Positions 23,890 to 41,065 of a stretch of DNA of 64,000 nt are shown here, piece by piece. The notes beneath the pieces were generated by a model. It was not told where the DNA came from and made no database searches. It saw nothing but the letters and a program-made list of their open reading frames with translations. Position 1 is the stretch's first letter, and each line of letters opens with the position of its first letter. The stretch is from Trypanosoma brucei (lineage: Eukaryota): assembly GCA_000002445.1 (NCBI GenBank), contig CP000070.1, positions 832,001 to 896,000 of the forward strand. The letters run 5' to 3'. The translations under genes were made by a program, and so were the position numbers.

Positions 23890-24294
23890 TCAACCAAATG
23901 TATTTTCCACACCATACGACACGTACAGAAAGCCATCAGGGTCTTTTGCCCTTGCGTAAATGTCTCCCAAGCAGGCACTGTTCGGCGGTAGTTCATTTCC
24001 TATAAACACAAATACGGCTTGACCCTCTTCTAGCAGCAGCCGCTGCCGCAGCGCCATCATGAACTCCATAACGGTAGCAGTTTCAGGGAGAAGAAACTTA
24101 TTACAGTCCAGCTCGCGCTGCACCTGCTGCCGTGTGGAGAAGAGCCTCACATCACGCGGTGTAGAGGCGCTAGCGGCTGAAGTGGGCTCGCAAAGGATGG
24201 GAATGTGTTTGGGGTAGCGCAAGCGCGCGGATTCTGTTTCCTTCGCGCGTTCAGCAAAACTACGTGTGTACTGGTACCGGTAGTGTGAAGGCAT
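23890..24294 (-). CDS. ATG8/ATG12-family ubiquitin-like protein (134 aa) ending in an exposed C-terminal Gly
   Basis: ATG8-fold signature throughout; C-terminus '...DGFLYVSYGVENTFG*'. ATG at 24292-24294 checked. The 151-aa track ORF starts at GTG. Confidence 0.8.
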   Translation of the reverse strand: MPSHYRYQYTRSFAERAKETESARLRYPKHIPILCEPTSAASASTPRDVRLFSTRQQVQRELDCNKFLLPETATVMEFMMALRQRLLLEEGQAVFVFIGNELPPNSACLGDIYARAKDPDGFLYVSYGVENTFG

Positions 24295-25131: not shown

Positions 25132-26887
25132 CTATGGAGGGAGCGACGACAACGATGAATAAAGAAGGAAAAAAGTTTAAGTCCACAAAAGAAAGTTTAA
25201 GTCGGAGGCCTCCACTGACACCGTTGGCTCAGCAGAGAAAGGGGTGGAGAAGGAGGAGGAATGGGTAAATGAGAGATGTAAAAAAGATCGTGACACCAAT
25301 GAAGTTATAAAAAGAGACCAGAGACGGAATACCTTGGACGCAGACCGTGTCAACATACCAACAAAAACAATTTTAAAAACAAAAAAATGAAGGTATTCTT
25401 GCCAATGAAAAGGGAGAGAACAGTGCGAAAACAGTCAACAGACAAGCACTTGGTATTCACGGACAGTGCAGAGACATTAGAGCGACCCCATCAACCGAAG
25501 GAAAAAAAAGAGAAATAGAAAAAGGGAGGCAACCGCGCGATGATCACAAAACAAAAAAAAATCTTACTCCCTCTCTCTGTTTTACAGCTTTTTCTTCTAT
25601 TTCCTATGCCCTCAGAAGCTGATCGTAGTGGTATAAATAATATACGAACAGTTAAAATGGGAAAAGGAGGAGAGTTACTTACTTTCCTCTCATCCTTCGT
25701 TTTGCTGTCGTTCCTTCTTCACTTGTGTTTCTCCCCATACGAAGCTTTCCAAACTACTTCTAAACCTTTCTCCTCGTCGTTGGCCACCGTCCGAAATTAC
25801 TTGGAAAAGAACAGCGACAAAAAAAAAATCACATATACACATACATACGTATGGACAAACGCTGGGGAAAGAGTGGCAAAAAGAAAAAAAGAAAGAAAAG
25901 TGCGACCAAAAAAAGGAAAACAAAAACCGTGGAATAAAAGCGAGACTGGGTCGCAGAACCGCGTGATATCCGCTGCCGAATATAAAACCCCTCCTTCCCC
26001 TTCGTATCAACACCTAATCGTAACTGTTAACGGTTAGGATGTTGAAAGCTTGCGAGGAAACCTGCGCGTGTGGGGTGGCATTATCTAGTAAAGGAAAAGA
26101 GTTGGGTCAACCGCAAATGCATACGTCTTATTTTTGTTGTTGTTGTTAAAGGGAAAACGGGGTTTACGCAATGAAAAAAAAATGCATACATGCGGGTGCC
26201 CACGCAGCTACTCCGTGCAGTATCGGGCAACATGGGAACGGCAGGAATGGAAAGACGCCAACCCCGTCGATACACCGTGCACTAAAAAGTGCAGTTCATC
26301 CGTAACGACAACAAGCAACAGTAAGGCAGCAGGAGCGTTAAACGCCACCATCACGGAAAAGAAGATTGCCGCCGCGTGCAAGTGGTTTGCACGACAGTAA
26401 CCCGGGAGCTTGCTGCTGCATTGGCACATGACCCTCTAAAAGAAAACAAAAACTTAACCCTCCTGTTATAGGCTCACAGAGGCTCGGTGGGCCGAAAAAT
26501 GGGGGGAATGCAAACCAAGAGACGAAAGGGAAAGACGTATATAAAGGAAAAAACGGCCGCTTCTGCCGCAGCTGCTACTCTGCGGCATCAACTATTTCAT
26601 TTGCAGTGTCTCAATGACACCTTAACTCACCGTTTTTCCTGAACTTTCTGTTTACTCTTTTTGTTCTTCCCCCGTAAATTGGATTCCCCTATAACGTGAA
26701 GACCTCCCTCCCCTCCGGTAAATACATCTTTCCTACCCCCCCCCACGCAGCTGCTTTCGCTGCACCAAACACTCCATCCACTAGCAAAGCTCTATTGAAA
26801 CAAAAATATTCGTTACATTAGACATCATTCATCGACTGTAACCTAGGTAGTGTATGAGATACCGTATCAATTACACACTGAGTGTCA

Positions 26888-29800
26888 TCAATGGTGCGCC
26901 CATGGCCCTCCCAAATGCGTTGTTGGGCAACCGGTTGCGTCGCCCTCGTCCTCATCGTCTTCACCTTCCTCAACAGAGCGCAAAAGCGATATCTCACGCA
27001 AAAGCTCCTTTGCACTCGTGGCAGAAACCTGACAACCACGAATGCGCGAGTCCAGATCCGTCATCAGTCCACCTATGTTGCGATTTAGCTCATCCACCAC
27101 ATCGTCGTGTTGTCTCCCTTTAGACTGTAATTCGACCATAAGTGCCTCTTTTTCACGCTTCAAACGCTCAAGCTGATGGCGCATCGAGCTAATGATATCT
27201 GTCCCACCCACGGCCAGATTGCTTGCAGACGGTACAGTCACCGCTGAGGTGGTGGAATTGCCAGTCTCTCCGAGATGCTCTGACGATGTCCAGGGGAGGG
27301 GAACGGGCATACCACCCTGTAGTTCCTCGATTCTGGCCTCCAGTTGTTGCATGACTGCCTCCACCTCACGCATCTCGTCGTCCTTAGCGTCTTGCAGGTC
27401 AAAGAGTTCCTGTTCACGGGCCTCCAGGGCCATCAACGCCGCCTTCTCCGCTGCTCGGGCTCCTTCAAGGACATTAACAAACTCATCGAGTTTACCAATG
27501 GTGTCAGTGTATTCAAACCCCTTCTCGTCCAACTCAAGCAACAGTGCAGCAATTTTTCTGTTAAGTGCATCAAGATCCTCTTTGTGAGTGATCTCCCGCT
27601 GTTCTAACTCTTCCCTCAGGGCAGCGTTCTCTTCGCTAAGTTTCTTAACCTCCTGTTCAAGTTCACCTACGAGATAAACGCCACTCATTAACTCTTCAAC
27701 CTTTCCACGGGCCACCTCCACGTGCGAACTTCGTGCCTTTTCAAGCATGTTGAACAGTGAGAGAAGCATCTCGTCACGGAACTTTTTGTCCCTATCTTGG
27801 GTGCAACGAAGTTCAAGTAACTCTTCCTCACGGGCAAAAAGCTCACTGCGCACCGTGCACTCAGCCTGACGAGCCTCATCCAATAGTACGACCATCTCCT
27901 CCATATTCTCCAGCATTTCGGTGTGTTCTGTGGCCCGCTCCTCAAGTTCGTCAAGTAAGTCACCTTCACGTTTCGCGCGAATACGGTCACGGTTGAGGAA
28001 CCCAACGACCAATAAGCACTGCAGCGAAGACAAAGAAGAGCGTTCAATAACCAAACGAGACAAGACCTCATCAACGAAAACACCCTGCTCATCAACCATG
28101 ACACCGCAGGCACGCCGCAAGAATGAAGACATCGTCAAATTGCCGCCACCAGCATCGTTAGTCCCAATACTACTGCCCAAAAGCAGCCGCTGCGTTTCCC
28201 TGAATGGGTAATGCTGAAGCCGTTGAGCAATTTCCGAAGGATGAATGCTTGAAGGATGGGTGACATCAAATTCAACCACACGACCACTCGGAGTGAACGT
28301 TACATTACTCACACAATCCCTGTAGACACGACATGCATTAGCAGCATCAACAACAACAGCACAACGTAACTCTTCCGGTTTATTCTTCAGCAACTCATCT
28401 AACCTCTCACCTTGAAGTTGAACACACTGAGAACTTACCATGCAATCTCCCTCCATCGAAGCCATCCACCGAGAATCATGTTTGCGCTCCTCCTCGCCGC
28501 CACGCGAAGGCTCATTCAACGCTTCCTCTAAGTCGTCCAGAGCGTTCGACATCAACACAGAAGGGCGATCATTGTGCGAAGAAGCGTCCACCACATCGAC
28601 ACCACTCCTCAGTTTTTTCAAAGCATCTACAGCTTTACGAAGCCCATCGCTCTGAGATACCAATTCATTGGTCTTGCGCTCATTCACAGCCTGCAGTTCC
28701 ATCACCTGCTCCTCCATATCACGAAGTCGTCTTTGTTGCTTGTCCAACTCATCTACCCTCAGTTCATCAGTGCCCCGCAATTGTTCATTCTGTGTCAGAA
28801 ATTCTTTCAGACGGTCACCAAGTTCCTGAAGTAGTTCGCCCTGAACAACAAGTTCATGAGATTTAATATCAAGTTCCTTCCGCAACTCGTCGTTTTCCGA
28901 AGATATCTCAGAGAGCTTCAGACGCAATTCCTTCACATCAGATAAAAGACATTCGATTTCTTTAGAATTTTCATCATCAACACTACGGAGATCGATATTT
29001 TCCCGCTTCACAAGAATCAACTCATTTTTGATAACACCAATACCATCACCGTCACCAGAAACATCCACATCAGCACTCTTCTCCTTCAAAAGATATTCAC
29101 CATCAGAATCAATTTTCATAGCACCGTCCTTCGCATCCCGAGAAACATCACGATCATCATTACGTAAAGAAAAAAGTTCGTTACTTCGTCTCAGTTCCTC
29201 ATTCTCAGTGCGTAGTTCAGCAAGTTGCTCCTCCATCTCATGAAGTTTCTCATTCTGCACATCAAGTTCACGTGCCTTGTCCCCTTCAGTATTGCGAAGC
29301 TCCTCATTCTCAGCGCGTAGTTCAGCAAGTTGCTCTTCCATCTCATGAAGTTTCTCATTCTGCACATCAAGTTCACGTGCCTTGTCACCATCAGTATTGC
29401 GAAGCTCCTCATTTTCAGCGCGTAGTTCAGCAAGTTGCTCCTCCATCTCATGAAGTTTCTCATTCTGCACATCAAGTTCACGTGCCTTGTCACCATCAGT
29501 ATTGCGAAGCTCCTCATTTTCAGCGCGTAGTTCGGCAAGTTGCTCCTCCATCTCATGAAGTTTCTCATTCTGCACATCAAGTTCACGTGCCTTGTCACCA
29601 TCAGTATTGCGAAGCTCCTCATTTTCAGCGCGTAGTTCAGCAAGTTGCTCCTCCATCTCATGAAGTTTCTCATTCTGCACATCAAGTTCACGTGCCTTGT
29701 CACCATCAGTATTGCGAAGCTCCTCATTTTCAGCGCGTAGTTCAGCAAGTTGCTCCTCCATCTCATGAAGTTTCTCATTCTGCACATCAAGTTCACGTGC

Positions 29801-32800
29801 CTTGTCACCATCAGTATTGCGAAGCTCCTCATTTTCAGCGCGTAGTTCGGCAAGTTGCTCCTCCATCTCATGAAGTTTCTCATTCTGCACATCAAGTTCA
29901 CGTGCCTTGTCACCATCAGTATTGCGAAGCTCCTCATTTTCAGCGCGTAGTTCAGCAAGTTGCTCCTCCATCTCATGAAGTTTCTCATTCTGCACATCAA
30001 GTTCACGTGCCTTGTCACCATCAGTATTGCGAAGCTCCTCATTTTCAGCGCGTAGTTCAGCAAGTTGCTCCTCCATCTCATGAAGTTTCTCATTCTGCAC
30101 ATCAAGTTCACGTGCCTTGTCACCATCAGTATTGCGAAGCTCCTCATTTTCAGCGCGTAGTTCAGCAAGTTGCTCCTCCATCTCATGAAGTTTCTCATTC
30201 TGCACATCAAGTTCACGTGCCTTGTCCCCTTCAGTATTGCGAAGCTCCTCATTTTCAGCGCGTAGTTCAGCAAGTTGCTCCTCCATCTCATGAAGTTTCT
30301 CATTCTGCACATCAAGTTCACGTGCCTTGTCACCATCAGTATTGCGAAGCTCCTCATTTTCAGCGCGTAGTTCAGCAAGTTGCTCCTCCATCTCATGAAG
30401 TTTCTCATTCTGCACATCAAGTTCACGTGCCTTGTCACCATCAGTATTGCGAAGCTCCTCATTTTCAGCGCGTAGTTCAGCAAGTTGCTCTTCCATCTCA
30501 TGAAGTTTCTCATTCTGTACATCAAGTTCACGTGCCTTGTCACCTTCAGTATTGCGAAGCTCCTCATTCTCAGCGCGTAGTTCAGCAAGTTGCTCCTCCA
30601 TCTCATGAAGTTTCTCATTCTGTACATCAAGTTCACGTGCCTTGTCACCATCAGTATTGCGAAGCTCCTCATTCTCAGCGCGTAGTTCAGCAAGTTGCTC
30701 CTCCATCTCATGAAGTTTCTCATTCTGCACATCAAGTTCACGTGCCTTGTCACCATCAGTATTGCGAAGCTCCTCATTTTCAGCGCGTAGTTCAGCAAGT
30801 TGCTCCTCCATCTCATGAAGTTTCTCATTCTGCACATCAAGTTCACGTGCCTTGTCACCATCAGTATTGCGAAGCTCCTCATTCTCAGCGCGTAGTTCAG
30901 CAAGTTGCTCCTCCATCTCATGAAGTTTCTCATTCTGCACATCAAGTTCACGTGCCTTGTCACCATCAGTATTGCGAAGCTCCTCATTCTCAGCGCGTAG
31001 TTCAGCAAGTTGCTCCTCCATCTCATGAAGTTTCTCATTCTGTACATCAAGTTCACGTGCCTTGTCACCATCAGTATTGCGAAGCTCCTCATTCTCAGCG
31101 CGTAGTTCAGCAAGTTGCTCTTCCATCTCATGAAGTTTCTCATTCTGCACATCAAGTTCACGTGCCTTGTCACCATCAGTATTGCGAAGCTCCTCATTCT
31201 CAGCGCGTAGTTCAGCAAGTTGCTCCTCCATCTCATGAAGTTTCTCGTTCTGCACATCAAGTTCACGTGCCTTGTCACCATCAGTATTGCGAAGCTCCTC
31301 ATTTTCAGCGCGTAGTTCAGCAAGTTGCTCCTCCATCTCATGAAGTTTCTCATTCTGCACATCAAGTTCACGTGCCTTGTCACCATCAGTATTGCGAAGC
31401 TCCTCATTCTCAGCGCGTAGTTCAGCAAGTTGCTCCTCCATCTCATGAAGTTTCTCATTCTGCACATCAAGTTCACGTGCCTTGTCCCCTTCAGTATTGC
31501 GAAGCTCCTCATTCTCAGTGCGTAGTCCATTTATCTTCTGTTCAAGTTCTTTTTGTAGGTAGAGAAGTTGCTGATTTCTTACTTCTAGTTCTCTTAATTT
31601 AGCGTGCTGCTCCTCTCGTATTCCTGTATTTTCGGTGCGCACTTCTCGGAGTTGTTCAACTAGTTCTTGGACTCTTCCTGATTGGACGCATAGATCGAGT
31701 GACTTTTCCACTTCGTGTTCGCGTAGCTGTTCGTTTTCTTTTTGTAGTTCGTTGGCATCTTGCTGTAGTTGTCGTAGTTGTGAATTTAGCTCCTCTATTT
31801 GATTTGTTTTACTGTTACAAATTTGCTGGAGATTGCTGTGAGATTCAGATAAAGTTCTCATCTGCCGATGTACATCCTGTATGTATTCGCTCTGCTTTTT
31901 TGCATCTACAGATATAATTTCATTATTTTTACAGAGTTCCTCATTTTCCCTAGCCAGAGTATTTAATTGGTTCTCTACAGCAGTTAGCCGCGCCTGTTGT
32001 GCAGCTAGTTCATTTGTTTTCTCCTCTTGTAATCGGAGAAGATCATCCCTCTCAGACGAAACATCATGCAGTTTTGCGCCAAGTTCACAGAGTTCTTGTT
32101 CTAGAGTATTCAGTTGTTGACGGCCTTCGTCGATTTGCTCCTTCAATAGATCTAGGCCATCCTTAGGTTCATTTAATTTCAACAGCAGCCGCTGCGTTTC
32201 CCTGAATGGGTAATGCTGAAGCCGTTGAGCAATTTCCGAAGGATGAATGCTTGAAGGATGGGTGACATCAAATTCAACCACACGACCACTCGGAGTGAAC
32301 GTTACATTACTCACACAATCCCTGTAGACACGACATGCATTAGCAGCATCAACAACAACAGCACAACGTAACTCTTCCGGTTTATTCTTCAGCAACTCAT
32401 CTAACCTCTCACCTTGAAGTTGAACACACTGAGAACTTACCATGCAATCTCCCTCCATCGAAGCCATCCACCGAGAATCATGTTTCCGCAGCTCATCATT
32501 TTCAGCACGAATCGCCTTCAGACTCTCTTGTAGCAAAGAAATTTTGGACTCAACGTTAGCAATCAGTTCATTAAGAGACTCAATTTCCTTTGCGTTATCA
32601 GATTCGGCAAGACGAAGTTGCTCATTTTCCTCCTTAAGTTGTTGCAAATGTCGCTCCACCTCGCACACATGTTTCTTGAGCAAATCAAGCTCACGGGCTT
32701 TTTCTTCTTCAGCACGGTGGAGCTCCTCGCTTTCTTTACTCAACTTTTTGATGTGTTGATCCTTTGCCGAACAGAGTTCATTTTGCGCATCAAGCTCAAT

Positions 32801-35800
32801 CACCTTCTCTCTGACACACTCCCTCAATGCATCCACTTCCTCTTGCATCTTCTTCACCTTTTCCTCCATTTCCTCCAGATGACGACTCCGCAAGTCAAGT
32901 TCACGTGCCTTTTCGGCCTCCGAATCCCGAAGCCCACCGTTTTCAGTGCGAAGTTCAGCAAGTTGCTCTTCCATCTCATTAAGTTTCTCATTCTGCACAT
33001 CAAGTTCACGTGCTTTCGCCTCATCAGAGCCGCGAAGTTGCTCATTTTGAACTAAAAATTCTTGAAGCTTACCGTCCAAGTCACCTAGTAAACCTTCCTG
33101 AACAACAAGATCATTCGACTTACACTCCAAAGTTCTCTTGAGATCACAATTTTCTTCCACTAAAGCATCTAATTGGTTCTCTACAGCAGTTAGCCGCGCC
33201 TGTTGTGCAGCTAGTTCATTTGTTTTCTCCTCTTGTAATCGGAGAAGATCATCCCTCTCAGACGAAACATCATGCAGTTTTGCGCCAAGTTCACAGAGTT
33301 CTTGTTCTAGAGTATTCAGTTGTTGACGGCCTTCGTCGATTTGCTCCTTCAATAGATCTAGGCCATCCTTAGGTTCATTTAATTTCAACAGCAGCCGCTG
33401 CGTTTCCCTGAATGGGTAATGCTGAAGCCGTTGAGCAATTTCCGAAGGATGAATGCTTGAAGGATGGGTGACATCAAATTCAACCACACGACCACTCGGA
33501 GTGAACGTTACATTACTCACACAATCCCTGTAGACACGACATGCATTAGCAGCATCAACAACAACAGCACAACGTAACTCTTCCGGTTTATTCTTCAGCA
33601 ACTCATCTAACCTCTCACCTTGAAGTTGAACACACTGAGAACTTACCATGCAATCTCCCTCCATCGAAGCCATCCACCGAGAATCATGTTTCCGCAGCTC
33701 ATCATTTTCAGCACGAATCGCCTTCAGACTCTCTTGTAGCAAAGAAATTTTGGACTCAACGTTAACAATCAGTTCATTAAGAGACTCAATTTCCTTTGCG
33801 TTATCAAAATCAGTAAGACGAAGTTGCTCATTTTCCTCCTTAAGTTGTTGCAAATGCCGTTCCATCTCATGAAGTTTCTCATTCTGTACATCAAGTTCAC
33901 GTGCCTTGTCACCATCAGTATTGCGAAGCTCCTCATTCTCAGCGCGTAGTTCAGCAAGTTGCTCCTCCATCTCATGAAGTTTCTCATTCTGCACATCAAG
34001 TTCACGTGCCTTGTCACCATCAGTATTGCGAAGCTCCTCATTTTCCTCCTTAAGTTGTTGCAAATGCCGTTCCATCTCATGAAGTTTCTCATTCTGTACA
34101 TCAAGTTCACGTGCCTTGTCACCATCAGTATTGCGAAGCTCCTCATTCTCAGCGCGTAGTTCAGCAAGTTGCTCCTCCATCTCATGAAGTTTCTCATTCT
34201 GCACATCAAGTTCACGTGCCTTGTCACCATCAGTATTGCGAAGCTCCTCATTCTCAGCGCGTAGTTCAGCAAGTTGCTCTTCCATCTCATGAAGTTTCTC
34301 ATTCTGCACATCAAGTTCACGTGCCTTGTCCCCTTCAGTATTGCGAAGCTCCTCATTCTCAGCGCGTAGTTCAGCAAGTTGCTCCTCCATCTCATGAAGT
34401 TTCTCATTCTGCACATCAAGTTCACGTGCCTTGTCACCATCAGTATTGCGAAGCTCCTCATTCTCAGCGCGTAGTTCAGCAAGTTGCTCTTCCATCTCAT
34501 GAAGTTTCTCATTCTGCACATCAAGTTCACGTGCCTTGTCCCCTTCAGTATTGCGAAGCTCCTCATTCTCAGCGCGTAGTTCAGCAAGTTGCTCCTCCAT
34601 CTCATGAAGTTTCTCATTCTGCACATCAAGTTCACGTGCCTTGTCACCATCAGTATTGCGAAGCTCCTCATTCTCAGCGCGTAGTTCAGCAAGTTGCTCC
34701 TCCATCTCATGAAGTTTCTCATTCTGTACATCAAGTTCACGTGCCTTGTCACCATCAGTATTGCGAAGCTCCTCATTCTCAGCGCGTAGTTCAGCAAGTT
34801 GCTCTTCCATCTCATGAAGTTTCTCATTCTGCACATCAAGTTCACGTGCCTTGTCACCATCAGTATTGCGAAGCTCCTCATTCTCAGCGCGTAGTTCAGC
34901 AAGTTGCTCTTCCATCTCATGAAGTTTCTCATTCTGCACATCAAGTTCACGTGCCTTGTCACCATCAGTATTGCGAAGCTCCTCATTCTCAGCGCGTAGT
35001 TCAGCAAGTTGCTCTTCCATCTCATGAAGTTTCTCATTCTGTACATCAAGTTCACGTGCCTTGTCACCATCAGTATTGCGAAGCTCCTCATTTTCAGCGC
35101 GTAGTTCAGCAAGTTGCTCCTCCATCTCATGAAGTTTCTCATTCTGCACATCAAGTTCACGTGCCTTGTCACCTTCAGTATTGCGAAGCTCCTCATTTTC
35201 AGCGCGTAGTTCAGCAAGTTGCTCTTCCATCTCATGAAGTTTCTCATTCTGTACATCAAGTTCACGTGCCTTGTCACCATCAGTATTGCGAAGCTCCTCA
35301 TTTTCAGCGCGTAGTTCGGCAAGTTGCTCCTCCATCTCATGAAGTTTCTCATTCTGTACATCAAGTTCACGTGCCTTGTCACCATCAGTATTGCGAAGCT
35401 CCTCATTTTCAGCGCGTAGTTCGGCAAGTTGCTCCTCCATCTCATGAAGTTTCTCATTCTGTACATCAAGTTCACGTGCCTTGTCACCATCAGTATTGCG
35501 AAGCTCCTCATTTTCAGCGCGTAGTTCAGCAAGTTGCTCCTCCATCTCATGAAGTTTCTCATTCTGCACATCAAGTTCACGTGCCTTGTCCCCTTCAGTA
35601 TTGCGAAGCTCCTCATTCTCAGCGCGTAGTTCAGCAAGTTGCTCCTCCATCTCATGAAGTTTCTCATTCTGCACATCAAGTTCACGTGCCTTGTCCCCTT
35701 CAGTATTGCGAAGCTCCTCATTCTCAGTGCGTAGTTCAGCAAGTTGCTCCTCCATCTCATGAAGTTTCTCATTCTGCACATCAAGTTCACGTGCCTTGTC

Positions 35801-38800
35801 CCCTTCAGTATTGCGAAGCTCCTCATTTTCAGCGCGTAGTTCAGCAAGTTGCTCCTCCATCTCATGAAGTTTCTCATTCTGTACATCAAGTTCACGTGCC
35901 TTGTCACCATCAGTATTGCGAAGCTCCTCATTCTCAGCGCGTAGTTCAGCAAGTTGCTCTTCCATCTCATGAAGTTTCTCATTCTGCACATCAAGTTCAC
36001 GTGCCTTGTCCCCTTCAGTATTGCGAAGCTCCTCATTCTCTGCGCGTAGTTCAGCAAGTTGCTCCTCCATCTCATGAAGTTTCTCATTCTGTACATCAAG
36101 TTCACGTGCCTTGTCACCATCAGTATTGCGAAGCTCCTCATTCTCAGCGCGTAGTTCAGCAAGTTGCTCCTCCATCTCATGAAGTTTCTCATTCTGTACA
36201 TCAAGTTCACGTGCCTTGTCACCATCAGTATTGCGAAGCTCCTCATTCTCAGCGCGTAGTTCAGCAAGTTGCTCTTCCATCTCATGAAGTTTCTCATTCT
36301 GCACATCAAGTTCACGTGCCTTGTCCCCTTCAGTATTGCGAAGCTCCTCATTCTCAGCGCGTAGTTCGGCAAGTTGCTCCTCCATCTCATGAAGTTTCTC
36401 ATTCTGCACATCAAGTTCACGTGCCTTGTCCCCTTCAGTATTGCGAAGCTCCTCATTCTCAGCGCGTAGTTCAGCAAGTTGCTCCTCCATCTCATGAAGT
36501 TTCTCATTCTGCACATCAAGTTCACGTGCCTTGTCCCCTTCAGTATTGCGAAGCTCCTCATTTTCAGCGCGTAGTTCAGCAAGTTGTTCCTCCATCTCAT
36601 GAAGTTTCTCATTCTGCACATCAAGTTCACGTGCCTTGTCCCCTTCAGTATTGCGAAGCTCCTCATTTTCAGCGCGTAGTTCGGCAAGTTGCTCCTCCAT
36701 CTCATGAAGTTTCTCATTCTGCACATCAAGTTCACGTGCCTTGTCCCCTTCAGTATTGCGAAGCTCCTCATTCTCAGCGCGTAGTTCAGCAAGTTGCTCC
36801 TCCATCTCATGAAGTTTCTCATTCTGCACATCAAGTTCACGTGCCTTGTCACCATCAGTATTGCGAAGCTCCTCATTCTCAGCGCGTAGTTCAGCAAGTT
36901 GCTCCTCCATCTCATGAAGTTTCTCATTCTGCACATCAAGTTCACGTGCCTTGTCACCATCAGTATTGCGAAGCTCCTCATTTTCAGCGCGTAGTTCAGC
37001 AAGTTGCTCTTCCATCTCATGAACGTATCCCTGCAGCTGGACGTCACCTGATGCTGCTTCCCTAATGCGATGAAGCTCCTCATTTTCAGCGCGTAGTTCA
37101 GCAAGTTGCTCTTCCATCTCATGAACGTATCCCTGCAGCTCGACGTCACCTGATGCTGCTTCCCTAATGCGATGAAGCTCCTCATTTTCAGCGCGTAGTT
37201 CAGCAAGTTGCTCTTCCATCTCATGAACGTATCCCTGCAGCTCGACGTCACCTGATGCTGCTTCCCTAATGCGATGAAGCTCCTCATTTTCAGCGCGTAG
37301 TTCAGCAAGTTGCTCTTCCATCTCATGAACGTATCCCTGCAGCTCGACGTCACCTGAAGCTGCTTCCCTAATGCAATGAAGCTCTTCTTTTTCTATTAGT
37401 TGTCCTATTATCTGTTGATGTGGTCGCATGGGGCTGTGTTGTCCTTGTTTGTCTTCTTTTATTCGTACTGCTTTTCTTTCTTCGGGGGACTCTTCGCTTA
37501 ATGGTTCTTCGGTTTTTTGTTGCCTCTGACGATGTGCTCTTATGTTACATATATTATCTTTGTCGTGATCACGTAACGATTCGTCTTGTTCATGTAGCTT
37601 GCTGTGCTCTGTTGGGGTTTCTTTTCTGTACGTTTCCCTTGTCTGACATTCTTCTGAACTTTCGACGGATGTGTTGGTGCGGGTTGTTTCTTCTTCGCTA
37701 GTTTCTTTCTCTAAAAGATATCCGTCGTCTTTTGCGTCCTCGGTTTTTGTTTGAATAACTTCTTCTTTGTTTTCTTTTGTCCGGCGTAGTAAAGTGTTTT
37801 CGTCATTCAGTATGCGTAGCCTCTCCTCCAATGCTTTTATGTGCCCTCGTAGTTCCTCAATCTGAGCAATTTCCTCCCTGGTGGACATGAATAAATCACC
37901 ATCGTCCAGGGTTTCGTGCAAACTGTGAGAATAAGAAGGACTGTCTTGGTGATCTCCTTCCCTCCGGCCTCTATTGCTGTGTTGGTGAGGGTCACTTTCT
38001 CCTTGTTTCCCGATCGTTTGCATTAGTTGCAACACTGAAAGAAACTCTGCCCTCCTGACCCGTTGTGCGAGATCGTATTGTGACACGGAAGGAGGGTGAG
38101 AGACGGTGAACACGACAGATGTGTAGTACTCATTGAAACAAATATCGTCAATATCACTGATATCTACCTGGCAAGCACGAGCGGCATCCACAAGAACGGC
38201 TTTGTTGATATCTTCTCTATTGTTGATTATGTGCGTCCTCCATTCACGGAGATCGATATTCTTTTTGAGTGTGGATGTGACCCTCTCCCCATGTTGGTCT
38301 TTATGTCCCTCGATGATGTAGCCCTCTCTGCTCCCACCGCGAGTTGATGCATGCAGCGGAGACTCGTGCTCACTTACCCCCTGGTCCGTAGCGTCGTATC
38401 CTCTAATCTGATCACCGCTGCTTTCCCTTTGTAGTTCCTCTATTTCTTTGCGGTAGTGCTCCAGCTGACGAAGATCTTCGTCATGGCGCTGCTTAAGTTC
38501 GCTGATCTTGATTATCCCTTCTTGGCGCGTCTTCTCTGCCAGTTCACGCTGCTCGTTCAGGAGCTGCTGTAGCTCGTTGTTCACCCGCTGCGCTTCTTCA
38601 ATTTGTTGTAAGAGGTCACTGTTCTCTTCATGGGCAATATCAGTGGAATTTTGCCGTGGCTGAGAGTCCACTGCTTCGTCCTTCGGCTGCAAACCACCAC
38701 AGCTGAACCCCCCTTCCAACGCATGATGAAGAGCAACGTGGAGCAGCGGGCGGTGAATGGTAGCGCACCAGTCAATGAACTGCACATCCTTGTCCGTAAT

Positions 38801-39892
38801 GCTAACGACATCACCATTATCATCCGAAATACTCAAAACTGTCAGAATACAAGAACGGGAAACGTTGGTTGACGGCCTATCAGCAGAGGCAACGAACGTA
38901 AGGTACTGTTCGCTCTCATCTTCGCAAGCCCCATCGTCAACACTGCTTCCCTCTTCAGCACTGCAGTGCAACTTTGTTTCAATGCGCTTGATTTGCGTGT
39001 TCAGTTCCTTTATGTGAGCTATGTGGCTGGTAATATTCGCGTGCAGCTCGTCTGTGGACCGCTGAGAGTTTACGATCTCACATATGACGTGAAACATGCC
39101 CATCTGGGCAATGATCCAATCAAAAAGAAGAGGTAGCAGGGTGTCAGTACCGGACCTCGACCCGCCGGTCGTTTTCCCACTTAGTTGATTGCAGTAGAGG
39201 TGGACATCGGACATGTAGGCATCGTTGATGTCGTTGTAAAGTTCTACGCTCATATCAGTCATTGGGTCAAATTCCAGCAACCGCTGTATGTAGGTCGGAT
39301 CCCTCACAGCGGCCCGCAGGTCCTCCCACGACCATGAGGAATCAACAACCAAGTCCTCATTTAGAAGTGCGACAGTTGCCTCTAGCGCAAGCCGAAGTTG
39401 CACCGATGGAACCCGTGTGTTGAACACTTCGTGAAGTCGCACCTCCTCTACAGCCGCAATAGCACGACGAACGGCATCGGAAGACTCCTTTGCACGCCCC
39501 ATGGCCGCCTCATTGTTACGCCGAACAGCCGCCATCTCCTCGCGCAACGCCATAACACTCATGTGGCGGTGCCTCATCTCCTCCATTTTCCTCTCTTTGT
39601 CGATCCTTAGTGTGTTGAGAACAGCGGGATCGTGGCTGTTCTGTGGGAGCAACACACGCACCGTAGCGGAACGTGAATCCAGCTGCAACACGCGCCCCAG
39701 AAACCATCGCCGCTTGGAAGCTTTGCCTAATAATTCATAGGCCACAAGAGACCCCACGCACAAGGGGTCTTTCACACTATTAAGTAACGACTTCACACGG
39801 CTGTGGGTCGGACTAGCGCCTTTGTCCAACGCATGCAGAGAATCTGCTGTTTGTGACCACTCCTCATCGAAATGGCCTTCGGCGGTTGCCAT
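26888..39892 (-). CDS. FAZ10: Giant (4334 aa, ~0.5 MDa) coiled-coil repeat protein; candidate FAZ10-type flagellum-attachment-zone protein
   Basis: Single uninterrupted minus-frame ORF. The track start is GTG; the first ATG is at 39890-39892 ('MATAEGHFDEEW'), checked. ~750-aa non-repetitive N-terminal region, then heptad-rich coiled coil built from 35-aa repeats 'EELRNT(D/E)GDKARELDVQNEKLHEMEEQLAELRAEN'. The FAZ10 assignment rests on size and on recalled neighbouring genes, not on a search. Confidence 0.85.
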   Translation of the reverse strand: MATAEGHFDEEWSQTADSLHALDKGASPTHSRVKSLLNSVKDPLCVGSLVAYELLGKASKRRWFLGRVLQLDSRSATVRVLLPQNSHDPAVLNTLRIDKERKMEEMRHRHMSVMALREEMAAVRRNNEAAMGRAKESSDAVRRAIAAVEEVRLHEVFNTRVPSVQLRLALEATVALLNEDLVVDSSWSWEDLRAAVRDPTYIQRLLEFDPMTDMSVELYNDINDAYMSDVHLYCNQLSGKTTGGSRSGTDTLLPLLFDWIIAQMGMFHVICEIVNSQRSTDELHANITSHIAHIKELNTQIKRIETKLHCSAEEGSSVDDGACEDESEQYLTFVASADRPSTNVSRSCILTVLSISDDNGDVVSITDKDVQFIDWCATIHRPLLHVALHHALEGGFSCGGLQPKDEAVDSQPRQNSTDIAHEENSDLLQQIEEAQRVNNELQQLLNEQRELAEKTRQEGIIKISELKQRHDEDLRQLEHYRKEIEELQRESSGDQIRGYDATDQGVSEHESPLHASTRGGSREGYIIEGHKDQHGERVTSTLKKNIDLREWRTHIINNREDINKAVLVDAARACQVDISDIDDICFNEYYTSVVFTVSHPPSVSQYDLAQRVRRAEFLSVLQLMQTIGKQGESDPHQHSNRGRREGDHQDSPSYSHSLHETLDDGDLFMSTREEIAQIEELRGHIKALEERLRILNDENTLLRRTKENKEEVIQTKTEDAKDDGYLLEKETSEEETTRTNTSVESSEECQTRETYRKETPTEHSKLHEQDESLRDHDKDNICNIRAHRQRQQKTEEPLSEESPEERKAVRIKEDKQGQHSPMRPHQQIIGQLIEKEELHCIREAASGDVELQGYVHEMEEQLAELRAENEELHRIREAASGDVELQGYVHEMEEQLAELRAENEELHRIREAASGDVELQGYVHEMEEQLAELRAENEELHRIREAASGDVQLQGYVHEMEEQLAELRAENEELRNTDGDKARELDVQNEKLHEMEEQLAELRAENEELRNTDGDKARELDVQNEKLHEMEEQLAELRAENEELRNTEGDKARELDVQNEKLHEMEEQLAELRAENEELRNTEGDKARELDVQNEKLHEMEEQLAELRAENEELRNTEGDKARELDVQNEKLHEMEEQLAELRAENEELRNTEGDKARELDVQNEKLHEMEEQLAELRAENEELRNTEGDKARELDVQNEKLHEMEEQLAELRAENEELRNTDGDKARELDVQNEKLHEMEEQLAELRAENEELRNTDGDKARELDVQNEKLHEMEEQLAELRAENEELRNTEGDKARELDVQNEKLHEMEEQLAELRAENEELRNTDGDKARELDVQNEKLHEMEEQLAELRAENEELRNTEGDKARELDVQNEKLHEMEEQLAELRTENEELRNTEGDKARELDVQNEKLHEMEEQLAELRAENEELRNTEGDKARELDVQNEKLHEMEEQLAELRAENEELRNTDGDKARELDVQNEKLHEMEEQLAELRAENEELRNTDGDKARELDVQNEKLHEMEEQLAELRAENEELRNTDGDKARELDVQNEKLHEMEEQLAELRAENEELRNTEGDKARELDVQNEKLHEMEEQLAELRAENEELRNTDGDKARELDVQNEKLHEMEEQLAELRAENEELRNTDGDKARELDVQNEKLHEMEEQLAELRAENEELRNTDGDKARELDVQNEKLHEMEEQLAELRAENEELRNTDGDKARELDVQNEKLHEMEEQLAELRAENEELRNTDGDKARELDVQNEKLHEMEEQLAELRAENEELRNTEGDKARELDVQNEKLHEMEEQLAELRAENEELRNTDGDKARELDVQNEKLHEMEEQLAELRAENEELRNTEGDKARELDVQNEKLHEMEEQLAELRAENEELRNTDGDKARELDVQNEKLHEMEEQLAELRAENEELRNTDGDKARELDVQNEKLHEMERHLQQLKEENEELRNTDGDKARELDVQNEKLHEMEEQLAELRAENEELRNTDGDKARELDVQNEKLHEMERHLQQLKEENEQLRLTDFDNAKEIESLNELIVNVESKISLLQESLKAIRAENDELRKHDSRWMASMEGDCMVSSQCVQLQGERLDELLKNKPEELRCAVVVDAANACRVYRDCVSNVTFTPSGRVVEFDVTHPSSIHPSEIAQRLQHYPFRETQRLLLKLNEPKDGLDLLKEQIDEGRQQLNTLEQELCELGAKLHDVSSERDDLLRLQEEKTNELAAQQARLTAVENQLDALVEENCDLKRTLECKSNDLVVQEGLLGDLDGKLQEFLVQNEQLRGSDEAKARELDVQNEKLNEMEEQLAELRTENGGLRDSEAEKARELDLRSRHLEEMEEKVKKMQEEVDALRECVREKVIELDAQNELCSAKDQHIKKLSKESEELHRAEEEKARELDLLKKHVCEVERHLQQLKEENEQLRLAESDNAKEIESLNELIANVESKISLLQESLKAIRAENDELRKHDSRWMASMEGDCMVSSQCVQLQGERLDELLKNKPEELRCAVVVDAANACRVYRDCVSNVTFTPSGRVVEFDVTHPSSIHPSEIAQRLQHYPFRETQRLLLKLNEPKDGLDLLKEQIDEGRQQLNTLEQELCELGAKLHDVSSERDDLLRLQEEKTNELAAQQARLTAVENQLNTLARENEELCKNNEIISVDAKKQSEYIQDVHRQMRTLSESHSNLQQICNSKTNQIEELNSQLRQLQQDANELQKENEQLREHEVEKSLDLCVQSGRVQELVEQLREVRTENTGIREEQHAKLRELEVRNQQLLYLQKELEQKINGLRTENEELRNTEGDKARELDVQNEKLHEMEEQLAELRAENEELRNTDGDKARELDVQNEKLHEMEEQLAELRAENEELRNTDGDKARELDVQNEKLHEMEEQLAELRAENEELRNTDGDKARELDVQNEKLHEMEEQLAELRAENEELRNTDGDKARELDVQNEKLHEMEEQLAELRAENEELRNTDGDKARELDVQNEKLHEMEEQLAELRAENEELRNTDGDKARELDVQNEKLHEMEEQLAELRAENEELRNTDGDKARELDVQNEKLHEMEEQLAELRAENEELRNTDGDKARELDVQNEKLHEMEEQLAELRAENEELRNTEGDKARELDVQNEKLHEMEEQLAELRAENEELRNTDGDKARELDVQNEKLHEMEEQLAELRAENEELRNTDGDKARELDVQNEKLHEMEEQLAELRAENEELRNTEGDKARELDVQNEKLHEMEEQLAELRAENEELRNTDGDKARELDVQNEKLHEMEEQLAELRAENEELRNTDGDKARELDVQNEKLHEMEEQLAELRAENEELRNTDGDKARELDVQNEKLHEMEEQLAELRAENEELRNTDGDKARELDVQNEKLHEMEEQLAELRAENEELRNTDGDKARELDVQNEKLHEMEEQLAELRAENEELRNTDGDKARELDVQNEKLHEMEEQLAELRAENEELRNTDGDKARELDVQNEKLHEMEEQLAELRAENEELRNTDGDKARELDVQNEKLHEMEEQLAELRAENEELRNTEGDKARELDVQNEKLHEMEEQLAELRTENEELRRSNELFSLRNDDRDVSRDAKDGAMKIDSDGEYLLKEKSADVDVSGDGDGIGVIKNELILVKRENIDLRSVDDENSKEIECLLSDVKELRLKLSEISSENDELRKELDIKSHELVVQGELLQELGDRLKEFLTQNEQLRGTDELRVDELDKQQRRLRDMEEQVMELQAVNERKTNELVSQSDGLRKAVDALKKLRSGVDVVDASSHNDRPSVLMSNALDDLEEALNEPSRGGEEERKHDSRWMASMEGDCMVSSQCVQLQGERLDELLKNKPEELRCAVVVDAANACRVYRDCVSNVTFTPSGRVVEFDVTHPSSIHPSEIAQRLQHYPFRETQRLLLGSSIGTNDAGGGNLTMSSFLRRACGVMVDEQGVFVDEVLSRLVIERSSLSSLQCLLVVGFLNRDRIRAKREGDLLDELEERATEHTEMLENMEEMVVLLDEARQAECTVRSELFAREEELLELRCTQDRDKKFRDEMLLSLFNMLEKARSSHVEVARGKVEELMSGVYLVGELEQEVKKLSEENAALREELEQREITHKEDLDALNRKIAALLLELDEKGFEYTDTIGKLDEFVNVLEGARAAEKAALMALEAREQELFDLQDAKDDEMREVEAVMQQLEARIEELQGGMPVPLPWTSSEHLGETGNSTTSAVTVPSASNLAVGGTDIISSMRHQLERLKREKEALMVELQSKGRQHDDVVDELNRNIGGLMTDLDSRIRGCQVSATSAKELLREISLLRSVEEGEDDEDEGDATGCPTTHLGGPWAHH
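29195..31525 (-). repeat. Array A: ~22 tandem copies of a 105-bp coding repeat (35-aa unit) inside the giant gene
   Basis: Period measured from 'tcagtattgcgaagctcctcatt' recurring every 105 bp. Copies differ only at a few mostly synonymous positions (ctgcacatc/ctgtacatc, ctcctcc/ctcttcc) and a D/E site. Confidence 0.9.
31960..32650 (-). repeat. ~690-bp intragenic module, duplicated at 33165-33855 (period ~1205 bp); a 300-bp partial third copy lies at 28183-28483
   Basis: 'cagcagccgctgcgtttccctgaatgggtaatgctgaagccgttgagc' appears at 28183, 32187 and 33393, identical over ~300 bp. Encodes 'KHDSRWMASMEGD...VVVDAANACRVYRDCVSNVTFTPSGRVVEFDVTHPSSIHPSEIAQRLQHYPFRETQRLL'. Confidence 0.85.
33856..37020 (-). 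repeat. Array B: ~30 tandem copies of the same 105-bp repeat
   Basis: Same unit as array A, separated from it by ~2.3 kb of unique or duplicated module sequence. Confidence 0.9.
37020..37385 (-). repeat. ~3.5 copies of a diverged 102-bp (34-aa) repeat at the protein-N-terminal side of array B
   Basis: 'gcgatgaagctcctcattttcagcgcgtagttcagcaagttgctcttccatctcatgaacgtatccctgcagctcgacgtcacctgatgctgcttccctaat' recurs with period 102. Protein unit 'EEQLAELRAENEELHRIREAASGDVELQGYVHEM'. Confidence 0.85.
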
Positions 39893-41065
39893 TGTAGGAA
39901 AGAGAACACGGAACACTAGCTAAAGCACCCAAAAGTACCTGGTCCCAAAACCCTGGTTGACACTTTGCTACTCTCCCCCTTCCCTCAATCGCTCTACTAC
40001 ACCTCGCTCACAAGTTCTACTGACTTCGCACTCAGCGGAGTTCGGATTCTTCCAAGACACGGCCAAATCCTCTCCTCCTCCTCCTCCTGTTTTTGCCCTT
40101 TTTTTTTCGTTCTATTACAAAAATTAAACAAAACTTTTGTCCTCCCCAACACTCACCCTCGCGGTGGCAAACACCAGTAGCAGTGGTGGTGTCGCCTCGT
40201 CACACTCGAAATGAACTACCGACTTGGGTGTGTTAACTCAGCCTTTCCACGGGGTTAGATCGCTCTTCAACTTTTCTGGCCCCTGTAGGTGCGGTTCTGA
40301 CCGTTCTTCGGGAATACTATAATGTACAACGATGCAAGCAGAGGAAACAGGAGAAATGAAATGATGGACACGACCCACTTGTAAAATCGACTAGTGCGTG
40401 GGTCTAAAGATAACACACAAATGCACAGTTATTTGTTTCTTACAAAGAAATCCGCACACTCAACGATACTTTTTCGACCTCTTCCTGCCGCTTGCAGTCT
40501 GACGCTCTTGCAACGATCCGCAAAAGCACAAGGCCAACACCAAACAGATACGATGCGATATGATATTATACGTATACCCACGTAATATCCAGAAAGTAGC
40601 GCATCTGCATCCTCCCCCCCCCCTCGTTGCAGCCACCTGTTTCTACGTGCGGGCACAATAAAGGAAGAAGGTCGCTTCCTTCTCACTATCAAGTGGAGGT
40701 CAAAGGAAAGACCACCCCTCTGGTCTGAGGCTTAAAATGAAAACAACGATGTGTCGGCAACTTCTGCAGTTCATTCAGGAGAATGGCACAACGTCGCATG
40801 TACGACCACCGTCGCCACCAGCAGCGGCACCGACAGAAGTTGATAGTTATAATTTTTTCCCCCTTTTAAAGTTCTGTACCGCGTAATCACCCGATGCCTC
40901 CTCCCTTCCTGTCGTTTGCTCGATGGGGAAGATAAATGTGAACGACAAATGTGGCAGTCACTTGTGAAGGGTCAAAATCAAAACATACCAATACACCACC
41001 AACTACGTCCTCAGCCTGACACCGCACCTTCCCACGCACGCACTCGCATGGGGCACCACACGCTC

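What the first reader, a model, noticed from the sequence alone, without database searches (positions are those of the whole stretch)
29195..37020. Two 105-bp coding arrays with near-perfect copy identity and mostly synonymous variants; copy number likely mis-assembled
More than 50 copies differ only at 5-6 positions, mostly synonymous plus one D/E site and a Pro/His polymorphism. This degree of homogenisation indicates frequent unequal crossing-over or gene conversion. It makes the true copy number very hard to get from short reads, so lengths of 2.3 and 3.2 kb are probably minimum estimates and strain-variable. Because variants are shared between arrays A and B, the arrays exchange sequence with each other.
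Basis: seen in the sequence. Interest (0 to 1): 0.5.

Follow-up and report, generated by a model that had tools for sequence, protein, structure and literature searches.

The report
FAZ10 repeat arrays of Trypanosoma brucei
The two 105-bp arrays are the already-described 35-amino-acid coiled-coil repeats of FAZ10, a giant flagellum-anchoring protein of the sleeping-sickness parasite, and their copy number differs between the genome assemblies compared here, but this was already suspected in print.

Summary
A 13,005-bp minus-strand gene (26888-39892) holds 30 + 22 in-register 105-bp units, with six recurrent variable sites, all at third codon positions. Five are silent and one is Asp/Glu. The "Pro/His" site is an antisense-frame artefact.

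The gene is FAZ10 (Tb927.7.3330) of Trypanosoma brucei TREU927. Length, 52 repeats, 502.7 kDa and four published primers all match. The 2017 FAZ10 paper already described the repeats. It also proposed under-assembly, because the protein runs at about 2000 kDa.

New here:
- Other assemblies differ. DAL972 has 46 + 13 units. PacBio IVM-t1 has 37 units in the C-terminal array, within a 16.9-kb gene.
- Two short-read assemblies break at the arrays.
- Variants private to one lineage sit in both arrays, which supports exchange between arrays.
- Silent changes dominate (8 of 10, P = 8e-5), which indicates purifying selection.
- No assembly comes near the ~38 kb of extra repeats that 2 MDa would need.

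Verdict: a known feature.

The parts
26888..39892 (-). FAZ10 coding sequence (Tb927.7.3330): 4334 codons plus stop, 13,005 bp
   Evidence: A single ORF. From the first ATG it is 4334 aa and 502.7 kDa, equal to the published 13,005 bp and 502 kDa (PMC5358337). The published tagging and RNAi primers match exactly at 26801-26980 and 27520-27933.
37394..39892 (-). Unique N-terminal region, containing FAZ1_cons domain copy 1 at about 38018-38281
   Evidence: Pfam PF23398, E = 1.3e-17. It is 98.7-98.9% identical to DAL972 and IVM-t1.
36983..37393 (-). Four variant units of 102 bp (34 aa; NEELHRIREAASGDVELQGYVHEMEEQLAELRAE), upstream of array B
   Evidence: Self-matches at a 102-bp shift, 97.6-98.4% identity. 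Translation. In IVM-t1 these units are interleaved with canonical units.
33833..36982 (-). Array B: 30 units of 105 bp (35 aa). Units 28 and 30 carry the divergent tail MERHLQQLKEE
   Evidence: DAL972 has 46 units here, and IVM-t1 has 24 canonical units plus interleaved variant units.
33164..33832 (-). Dispersed module M1 (669 bp), containing FAZ1_cons copy 2 at about 33389-33646
   Evidence: 98.95% identical to M2. Pfam E = 2e-44 for the two central copies together.
32627..33163 (-). Spacer X between M1 and M2. It is coiled-coil sequence with one diverged repeat unit at 32942-33046
   Evidence: IVM-t1 has three extra canonical units at this diverged unit.
31958..32626 (-). Dispersed module M2 (669 bp), containing FAZ1_cons copy 3
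   Evidence: DAL972 has a single M module in place of M1-X-M2.
31514..31957 (-). Spacer Y between M2 and array A, made of diverged coiled-coil units
29204..31513 (-). Array A: 22 units of 105 bp (35 aa)
   Evidence: DAL972 has 13 units and IVM-t1 has 37.
26888..29203 (-). C-terminal region, including the third dispersed copy M3 (28178-28495, 318 bp) with FAZ1_cons copy 4
   Evidence: M3 is 98.4% identical to M1 and to M2. Pfam E = 4.3e-22. The second OVI contig starts inside M3, at window 28483.

Best explanation
The two arrays are the two coiled-coil repeat domains of FAZ10, a giant cytoskeletal protein of the flagellum attachment zone in Trypanosoma brucei.

- **What a unit is.** Each 105-bp unit encodes 35 residues, which is five heptads. 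Adding or removing whole units therefore changes the length of the rod (about 5 nm per unit if it is a canonical coiled coil) without disturbing the heptad register.
- **How the units stay alike.** They are kept nearly identical by repeated unequal crossing-over and gene conversion within each array and between the two arrays.
- **Role of selection.** Purifying selection on the protein removes amino-acid changes, so almost only silent third-position variants persist.
- **Consequence.** The number and order of units, and even the dispersed 669-bp FAZ1_cons modules between the arrays, differ between strains or assemblies. Short-read assemblies cannot cross the arrays.

Shown here: gene identity, array structure, the variant pattern, and the differences between assemblies. 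Inferred: the recombination mechanism and the rod or spacer role of the repeats. Taken from publications: FAZ localisation, RNAi phenotype, and the coiled-coil dimer of the central region.
For: **Identity**
- The ORF length, 52 repeats, 502.7 kDa and C-terminus match the published description (against PMC5358337).
- Four published primers match exactly (primers from PMC3313915).
- The neighbours are 100% identical to TREU927 FPPS and the methyltransferase.
- There are four FAZ1_cons domains.

**Selection**
- Of 10 segregating sites, 8 are silent where 2 would be expected (21 silent sites of 105). Binomial P = 7.8e-5.

**Recombination**
- 12 of 15 site pairs show all four allele combinations within 105 bp.
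- Neighbouring units are more alike than shuffled ones (P about 0.03-0.04).
- Units B23-B30 alternate with period 2, and units A11-A20 repeat with period 3. The corresponding exact repeats are 365 bp at a 210-bp shift and 512 bp at a 315-bp shift.

**Exchange between arrays**
- Mean between-array difference (2.51 per 105 bp) lies between the within-array values (1.91 and 2.74).
- A 365-bp exact stretch is shared by both arrays.
- Variants 27G (14 of 50 units) and 90C (6 of 50) occur in both TREU927 arrays but in 0 of 126 units of DAL972 and IVM-t1 (P = 5e-9 and 4e-4). Variant 12C occurs in both arrays of DAL972 and IVM-t1 but not in TREU927.

**Variable copy number**
-.

**Coiled coil**
- One heptad register places L/M at 6 of 10 a/d positions.
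- COILS prediction is reported in PMC5358337, and the central region is a parallel dimer in 10.64898/2026.05.05.722045.
Against: - Four of the six common variants (sites 24, 51, 78, 105) are polymorphic in all three assemblies. Variant turnover is therefore slower than strain divergence.
- Within-array unit divergence (about 2%) is no lower than the divergence of the flanks between strains (about 1%). Homogenisation is effective but not especially fast.
- The private variants could be ancestral polymorphisms that were lost elsewhere.
- Differences between assemblies may partly be assembly errors:
  - DAL972 has a frameshift in array B and a possibly collapsed central region.
  - IVM-t1 has many 1-nt deletions and a 1224-bp perfectly duplicated block.
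- No reads were available.
Confidence: 0.85

Rival explanations
1. The reference arrays are strongly collapsed. On this view the true gene holds several hundred units (about 38 kb more) and encodes the roughly 2-MDa protein seen on gels.
For: - FAZ10 and Myc-tagged FAZ10 run as a doublet at about 2000 kDa, against 502 kDa predicted. The authors themselves propose under-assembled repeats (PMC5358337).
- Exact repeats of 512 bp and 365 bp are places where extra higher-order copies could be hidden.
- Short-read assemblies break at the arrays.
- Repeats collapsed in the assembly of another FAZ giant protein, T. cruzi H49/calpain (PMC3214072).
- The PacBio IVM-t1 gene is longer, at 16,932 bp.
Against: - About 362 extra units would be needed.
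- The long-read assembly of a close relative adds only about 3.9 kb, and part of that may be a haplotype duplication.
- The TREU927 arrays carry 21 distinct unit types in a largely aperiodic order. That is not what a collapsed consensus looks like.
- The protein is very acidic (pI 4.56, 26% D+E). Acidic proteins are known to run slowly on SDS gels, and calibration above 1 MDa is coarse (general knowledge).
- ClpGM6 shows a similar excess (PMC5358337).
Confidence: 0.12
2. The near-identity is an assembly artefact: divergent units were merged into a consensus, so the homogeneity is not real.
For: Repeats are a known source of consensus errors. DAL972 and IVM-t1 do carry sequence errors inside the arrays.
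Against: - Three independent assemblies (TREU927 and DAL972 from, as I recall, capillary reads; IVM-t1 from PacBio) give the same consensus unit and the same four polymorphic sites.
- The variants are structured, being at third positions and silent.
- Peptides and antibodies confirm the protein (PMC5358337).
Confidence: 0.02
3. The two arrays do not exchange sequence. They share variants only because one ancestral polymorphic array was split or duplicated, and each array has since evolved separately.
For: - Four common variants are old and shared across all assemblies.
- Allele frequencies differ somewhat between arrays at sites 24, 27 and 105 (P = 0.04-0.08).
Against: - Lineage-private variants are present in both arrays of the same genome: 27G and 90C in TREU927, 12C in DAL972 and IVM-t1, and 67T in both C-terminal blocks of IVM-t1.
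- An identical rare unit type carrying the Ala-to-Thr change occurs once in each array (B12 = A22).
- The dispersed modules M1, M2 and M3, which lie 1.2-5 kb apart, are also 98.4-99% identical, so non-tandem copies within this gene are homogenised as well.
Confidence: 0.15

Closest known systems
FAZ10 (Tb927.7.3330) of Trypanosoma brucei, described by Moreira et al. 2017 (PMC5358337)
   Same: It is this gene. The match covers the 13,005-bp ORF, 52 near-identical 35-aa repeats in two coiled-coil domains separated by a central region, 502 kDa predicted mass, the same C-terminus and the same primers. Under-assembly and allelic variation in repeat number were already proposed there.
   Different: Nothing differs in the sequence. 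Added here are the DNA-level variant analysis, the unit-by-unit comparison of assemblies, and a probable explanation of the 'second motif' in T. b. gambiense as a frameshifted reading.
Other giant repeat proteins of the trypanosomatid cytoskeleton: ClpGM6 / T. cruzi H49 calpain-like protein (68-aa repeats), FLAM3, FAZ1 and NUP-1
   Same: - They are large structural proteins with long runs of near-identical coding repeats.
- The repeats are nearly identical within a species and diverge between species (NUP-1, PMC3313915).
- Gel sizes exceed predictions (ClpGM6, PMC5358337).
- Repeats collapsed in genome assemblies (H49, PMC3214072).
   Different: They have different unit lengths and sequences and are not homologous in the repeats. 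FAZ10 has two arrays separated by duplicated FAZ1_cons modules. ClpGM6 and H49 carry calpain domains.
Coding minisatellites under concerted evolution, such as yeast FLO adhesins and human mucin VNTRs (from general knowledge, not tested here)
   Same: They are in-frame tandem units with variable copy number, generated by unequal recombination, and the length of the protein changes with copy number.
   Different: Those are mostly surface or secreted proteins whose length variation changes adhesion or antigenicity. FAZ10 is an intracellular coiled-coil scaffold, and its unit length is constrained to a multiple of seven residues.

Membership tests
FAZ10 (Tb927.7.3330) | ORF of 13,005 bp / 4334 aa with 52 repeats of 35 aa in two blocks, and a predicted mass of 502 kDa | tested here: met
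   against PMC5358337.
FAZ10 (Tb927.7.3330) | Published gene-specific primers (C-terminal tagging and RNAi) match the sequence | tested here: met
   There are exact matches at 26891-26980, 26801-26888, 27914-27933 and 27520-27539. The primers are from PMC3313915.
FAZ10 (Tb927.7.3330) | Chromosome 7 context of T. brucei TREU927 | tested here: met
   FPPS equals XP_845959.1 exactly. The methyltransferase is 510/510 identical to XP_845957.1. The ATG8, DHHC and MORN neighbours are present.
FAZ10 (Tb927.7.3330) | FAZ1_cons globular domains (Pfam PF23398) | tested here: met
   There are four copies, with E-values from 1e-17 to 2e-44, all above the gathering score.
FAZ10 (Tb927.7.3330) | Localisation to the FAZ intracellular domain, with flagellum detachment and furrow misplacement on knock-down | not testable with these tools
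   Published in PMC5358337.
Concertedly evolving coding tandem array (VNTR-like) | Head-to-tail in-frame units of high identity | tested here: met
   96-98% matches and 0% indels. Mean pairwise differences are 1.9-2.7 per 105 bp.
Concertedly evolving coding tandem array (VNTR-like) | Copy number differs between strains | tested here: met
   Unit counts for B/A are 30/22 (window) and 46/13 (DAL972). In IVM-t1, A has 37 units, with further blocks. This holds at the level of assemblies and has not been verified with reads.
Concertedly evolving coding tandem array (VNTR-like) | Lineage-specific variants spread over many units and both arrays | tested here: met
   The variants are 27G and 90C (TREU927 only, in both arrays), 12C (DAL972 and IVM-t1, in both arrays) and 67T (IVM-t1).
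Concertedly evolving coding tandem array (VNTR-like) | Units alike within a species but divergent between species | not tested
   This is reported in PMC5358337, with up to 57% divergence for T. cruzi and T. congolense. No orthologous repeat sequence from another species was retrievable here.
Collapsed repeat in the reference assembly | Excess read depth over the arrays, or spanning long reads longer than the reference | not testable with these tools
   No reads are available.
Collapsed repeat in the reference assembly | Exact internal repeats longer than the reads used | tested here: inconclusive
   The longest exact repeats are 512 bp (A) and 365 bp (B). These are longer than any Illumina read. 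They are shorter than the roughly 600-800-bp length I assume, from memory, for the capillary reads behind this reference.
Collapsed repeat in the reference assembly | A long-read assembly of the same strain shows more copies | tested here: inconclusive
   Only a different strain (IVM-t1, PacBio) was available. Its gene is 16,932 bp against 13,005 bp, and part of the excess may be an artefact.

The most novel reading that the evidence does not exclude
FAZ10 repeat number is a fast-evolving, heritable length dial. On this reading, unequal exchange changes the coiled-coil rod by tens to hundreds of nanometres between strains and alleles. The gel doublet would then be two alleles. The true gene in laboratory strains may be several times longer than any current assembly, which would make reference FAZ10 models seriously incomplete and would link repeat number to FAZ geometry and cell shape.
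Probability: 0.12. Interest if true: 0.55.

Novelty: already known. Interest (0 to 1): 0.25.

Why it matters
FAZ10 is needed for flagellum attachment and for correct placement of the cleavage furrow in T. brucei, and its size is still disputed (502 kDa predicted, about 2 MDa on gels).

- The arrays differ by 9-24 units between assemblies, so reference gene models should not be trusted for repeat number.
- None of the three assemblies that span the gene comes close to 2 MDa. This narrows the explanations and says what has to be measured, namely spanning long reads in TREU927 and Lister 427.
- A small practical point: the "second repeat motif" reported for T. b. gambiense is probably the same DNA read in a shifted frame after a 1-nt deletion in the deposited sequence.

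Tried and rejected
**Searches that gave nothing useful**
- An exact look-up of the 4334-aa protein found nothing.
- A homologue search with the N-terminal 472 aa gave only a Logan fragment and a 761-aa orthologue fragment without repeats.
- A homologue search with four repeat units found nothing. Giant FAZ10 entries appear to be missing from that database.
- Literature searches for FAZ10 together with PacBio, long-read or alleles found nothing relevant.
- Look-ups of the neighbouring genes using the mechanical ORF starts failed. Using the annotated starts worked.

**Interpretations rejected**
- The + strand ORFs (29272-31602, 34111-37065) and the second minus-frame ORFs (29191-31530, 33769-37353) are not genes. 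They are open only inside the arrays, as expected when a stop-free unit is repeated.
- A bacterial or phage origin does not fit. The genes are eukaryotic, trypanosome-specific, and nearly all on one strand.
Full report
**1. The observation**

Tandem Repeats Finder reports two 105-bp arrays: 29196-31526 (22.2 copies, 98% matches, no indels) and 33861-37329 (33.1 copies, 96%). Both lie inside one minus-strand ORF, 26888-39916. Its translation is a long coiled-coil-like protein.

In that frame there are 30 in-register units in the N-terminal array (B, 33833-36982) and 22 in the C-terminal array (A, 29204-31513). The consensus unit is NEELRNTDGDKARELDVQNEKLHEMEEQLAELRAE.

The variable sites are as follows.
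- Six sites vary recurrently: unit positions 24, 27, 51, 78, 90 and 105. All are third codon positions.
- Five of the six are silent. Position 24 gives Asp/Glu.
- Rare variants are positions 57, 81 and 102 (silent) and position 100 (Ala to Thr, once in each array).
- Units B28 and B30 differ at 18 nt, giving the tail MERHLQQLKEE.
- Four further 102-bp (34-aa) variant units sit upstream of B at 36983-37393.

Site 27 is a silent Gly codon. It reads His/Pro only in a + strand frame, and the spurious + strand ORF through the arrays shows ...VPCHHQY... or ...VPCPLQY....

**2. What it is**

The non-repeat parts contain four copies of Pfam FAZ1_cons (PF23398), with E-values from 1e-17 to 2e-44. The neighbours are eukaryotic genes, nearly all on the minus strand.
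- The FPPS neighbour is identical to T. brucei TREU927 XP_845959.1.
- The methyltransferase is 510/510 identical to XP_845957.1.

From its first ATG (39892) the ORF is 4334 aa, or 13,005 bp with the stop. The predicted mass is 502.7 kDa and the pI is 4.56. [quoted passage not shown]

The published Tb927.7.3330 tagging and RNAi primers (PMC3313915) match the window exactly at the stop codon and within the C-terminal region. The finding is therefore the repeat domains of a characterised gene.

**3. Anatomy of the gene**

In order along the gene:
- a unique N-terminal region with FAZ1_cons copy 1;
- four 34-aa variant units;
- array B (30 units);
- module M1 (669 bp, FAZ1_cons copy 2);
- spacer X (537 bp, with one diverged unit);
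- module M2 (669 bp, 98.95% identical to M1, FAZ1_cons copy 3);
- spacer Y (444 bp);
- array A (22 units);
- the C-terminal region, with a 318-bp third copy, M3 (98.4% identical to M1 and M2, FAZ1_cons copy 4).

The 35-residue unit is five heptads. One register puts Leu or Met at 6 of 10 a/d positions. The 2017 paper predicted both arrays as coiled coils. [quoted passage not shown]

**4. How the arrays evolve, from evidence inside the window**

- **Selection.** Of 10 segregating sites, 8 are silent, although only 21 of the 105 sites are silent sites. Binomial P = 7.8e-5 and pN/pS is about 0.06. Selection therefore acts on the peptide, not only on length.
- **Recombination between units.** 12 of 15 pairs of common sites show all four allele combinations within one 105-bp unit.
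- **Local duplication.**
  - Neighbouring units are slightly more alike than shuffled ones (P = 0.03-0.04).
  - Units B23-B30 alternate with period 2, and the array edge unit with the RHLQQLKEE tail is duplicated.
  - Units A11-A20 repeat with period 3.
  - These patterns give exact repeats of 365 bp at a 210-bp shift and 512 bp at a 315-bp shift.
  - Such patterns are the expected footprints of out-of-register exchange.
- **No differentiation between arrays.**
  - Mean differences per 105 bp are 1.91 within A, 2.74 within B and 2.51 between them.
  - Six unit types are shared by both arrays.
  - One shared type is the rare unit carrying Ala to Thr (B12 = A22).
  - A 365-bp exact stretch is common to both arrays.

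**5. Other assemblies**

I reached these by looking up exact copies of the neighbouring genes with 10-kb flanks.

- **T. equiperdum OVI.** One contig ends at window 37182, about 200 bp into the repeat domain. The next contig starts at 28483, inside M3. The arrays are not assembled.
- **Logan short-read contig.** It follows FAZ10 to window 37430 and then jumps to an unrelated gene.
- **T. b. gambiense DAL972.** The gene spans 12,638 bp.
  - Array B has 46 units and array A has 13.
  - A single M module replaces M1-X-M2.
  - Only 2 of 59 units are the Glu form.
  - One unit is 104 bp. The deposited sequence therefore changes frame inside array B.
- **T. b. equiperdum IVM-t1 (PacBio).** The gene spans 16,932 bp.
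  - Array A has 37 units.
  - The N-terminal array has 24 canonical units, interleaved with 34-aa variant units.
  - Three extra canonical units sit in spacer X.
  - A second X-tail-M2-Y block is followed by another array.
  - The two 1224-bp X-tail-M2-Y copies are identical, while the units that follow them differ at 7 sites. This is either a very recent duplication or two haplotypes concatenated.
  - This assembly also has many 1-nt deletions in the arrays.

**6. The same variants across assemblies**

- Sites 24, 51, 78 and 105 are polymorphic in all three genomes and in both arrays, so these variants pre-date the split of the strains.
- Sites 27 (G in 14 of 50 units) and 90 (C in 6 of 50 units) are variable only in TREU927, and in both of its arrays. 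They occur in 0 of 126 units elsewhere (P = 5e-9 and 4e-4).
- Variant 12C is absent from TREU927 but present in both arrays of DAL972 and IVM-t1.
- Variant 67T is confined to IVM-t1, where it occurs in both of its C-terminal blocks.

Lineage-private variants that sit in both arrays are the best available evidence that the arrays exchange sequence. Loss of an ancestral polymorphism elsewhere cannot be fully excluded.

The persistence of four old polymorphisms shows that unit number and order change faster than variants are fixed or lost. Within-array divergence (about 2%) is no lower than the divergence of the flanks between strains (about 1%), which points the same way.

**7. Is the reference mis-assembled?**

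This cannot be decided here, because no reads are available.

In favour:
- FAZ10 runs at about 2000 kDa as a doublet, and the authors propose extra repeats or allelic repeat-number variation.
- Repeats collapsed in the assembly of a related FAZ protein (PMC3214072).
- Short-read assemblies break at the arrays.
- The long-read assembly is longer.

Against a large collapse:
- About 362 more units (38 kb) would be needed.
- The largest assembly adds only 3.9 kb.
- DAL972's array A is shorter than the one in the window.
- The TREU927 arrays carry 21 unit types in a mostly aperiodic order.
- The longest exact repeats (512 and 365 bp) are below the length I assume, from memory, for the capillary reads behind this reference.
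- The protein is extremely acidic, which is known to slow SDS-PAGE migration (general knowledge).
- PCR of the central region from strain 427 gave the TREU927-sized product. This also suggests that DAL972's single central module is a collapse of the 669-bp duplicate rather than a real deletion.

**8. Comparison and verdict**

This is FAZ10 itself. It belongs with the other giant repeat proteins of the trypanosome cytoskeleton (ClpGM6/H49, FLAM3, FAZ1, NUP-1) and behaves like a coding minisatellite under concerted evolution.

The repeats, their number, the coiled-coil prediction, and the suspicion of under-assembly with allelic variation are all already published.

What this analysis adds is modest:
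- a DNA-level variant analysis showing purifying selection and exchange between arrays;
- a unit-level comparison showing that three assemblies disagree in both arrays and in the central modules;
- the point that no assembly approaches 2 MDa;
- a likely explanation for the "other motif" of T. b. gambiense.

The novelty class is "already known", and interest is low to moderate.

Noticed in passing
L012+L004 (T. b. gambiense DAL972, FN554970.1), gene nt 4276-4379; compare window 33769-37353 (-): One repeat unit is 104 bp because a G is lost from GATGGAGGAG, so the deposited gene changes frame inside array B. The array stays open in the shifted frame and reads NYALRMRSFAILMVTRHVNLMCRMRNFMRWRSNLL. 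[quoted passage not shown] That link is an inference, because their figure was not available.
   Followed up: partly
window 33164-33832, 31958-32626, 28178-28495: Dispersed near-identical copies of the FAZ1_cons module lie inside one gene: 669 bp at 98.95% identity and 318 bp at 98.4%, spaced 1.2-5 kb apart. DAL972 has only one central copy. IVM-t1 has an extra copy. An OVI contig breaks inside the third copy.
   Followed up: partly
L011 20,853-21,533 and L003 1-1224 (IVM-t1, CM010678.1): A 1224-bp block (X-tail, M2, Y) occurs twice with 100% identity, yet the repeat units after each copy differ at 7 variant sites. This is either a recent duplication or haplotype concatenation. The 692 bp between the two loci were not retrievable.
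   Followed up: partly
L011 15,200-18,450 (IVM-t1): In IVM-t1, 34-aa (102-bp) variant units are interleaved with the 35-aa units of the N-terminal array. In the window all four variant units lie upstream of array B. A 34-residue unit breaks the heptad register.
   Followed up: no
window 4329-5522 and 6888-7907 (-); 172-2019 (+): Two adjacent ORFs of 397 and 339 aa match the Pfam A-type trypanosome VSG domain, with sizes typical of an ESAG6/ESAG7-like pair. They lie next to a + strand WD40 gene, which makes a convergent strand switch at about 2.0-4.3 kb. This stretch also shows strong GC and AT skew. No tRNA was found.
   Followed up: no
window 41066-42847 (-): The NDUFAF7-like methyltransferase is annotated with different starts in different assemblies: 593 aa in OVI and DAL972, and 510 aa in TREU927 and IVM-t1.
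   Followed up: no
window 59518-59670: There is a short 24-bp tandem repeat (6.4 copies, 87% matches) inside a minus-strand ORF at 59472-60329.
   Followed up: no
L001 (Logan ERR7929163 contig), positions 2682-4475: This short-read contig follows FAZ10 to window 37430 and then continues into an unrelated 462-aa ORF on the other strand. It is most likely a chimeric join at the edge of the repeat domain.
   Followed up: partly
window 23890-24294 (-): An ATG8-family gene (134 aa) lies immediately downstream of FAZ10. Its protein is identical in TREU927-like, DAL972, IVM-t1 and OVI assemblies and in several Logan runs, which made it a useful anchor for fetching the locus from other assemblies.
   Followed up: yes
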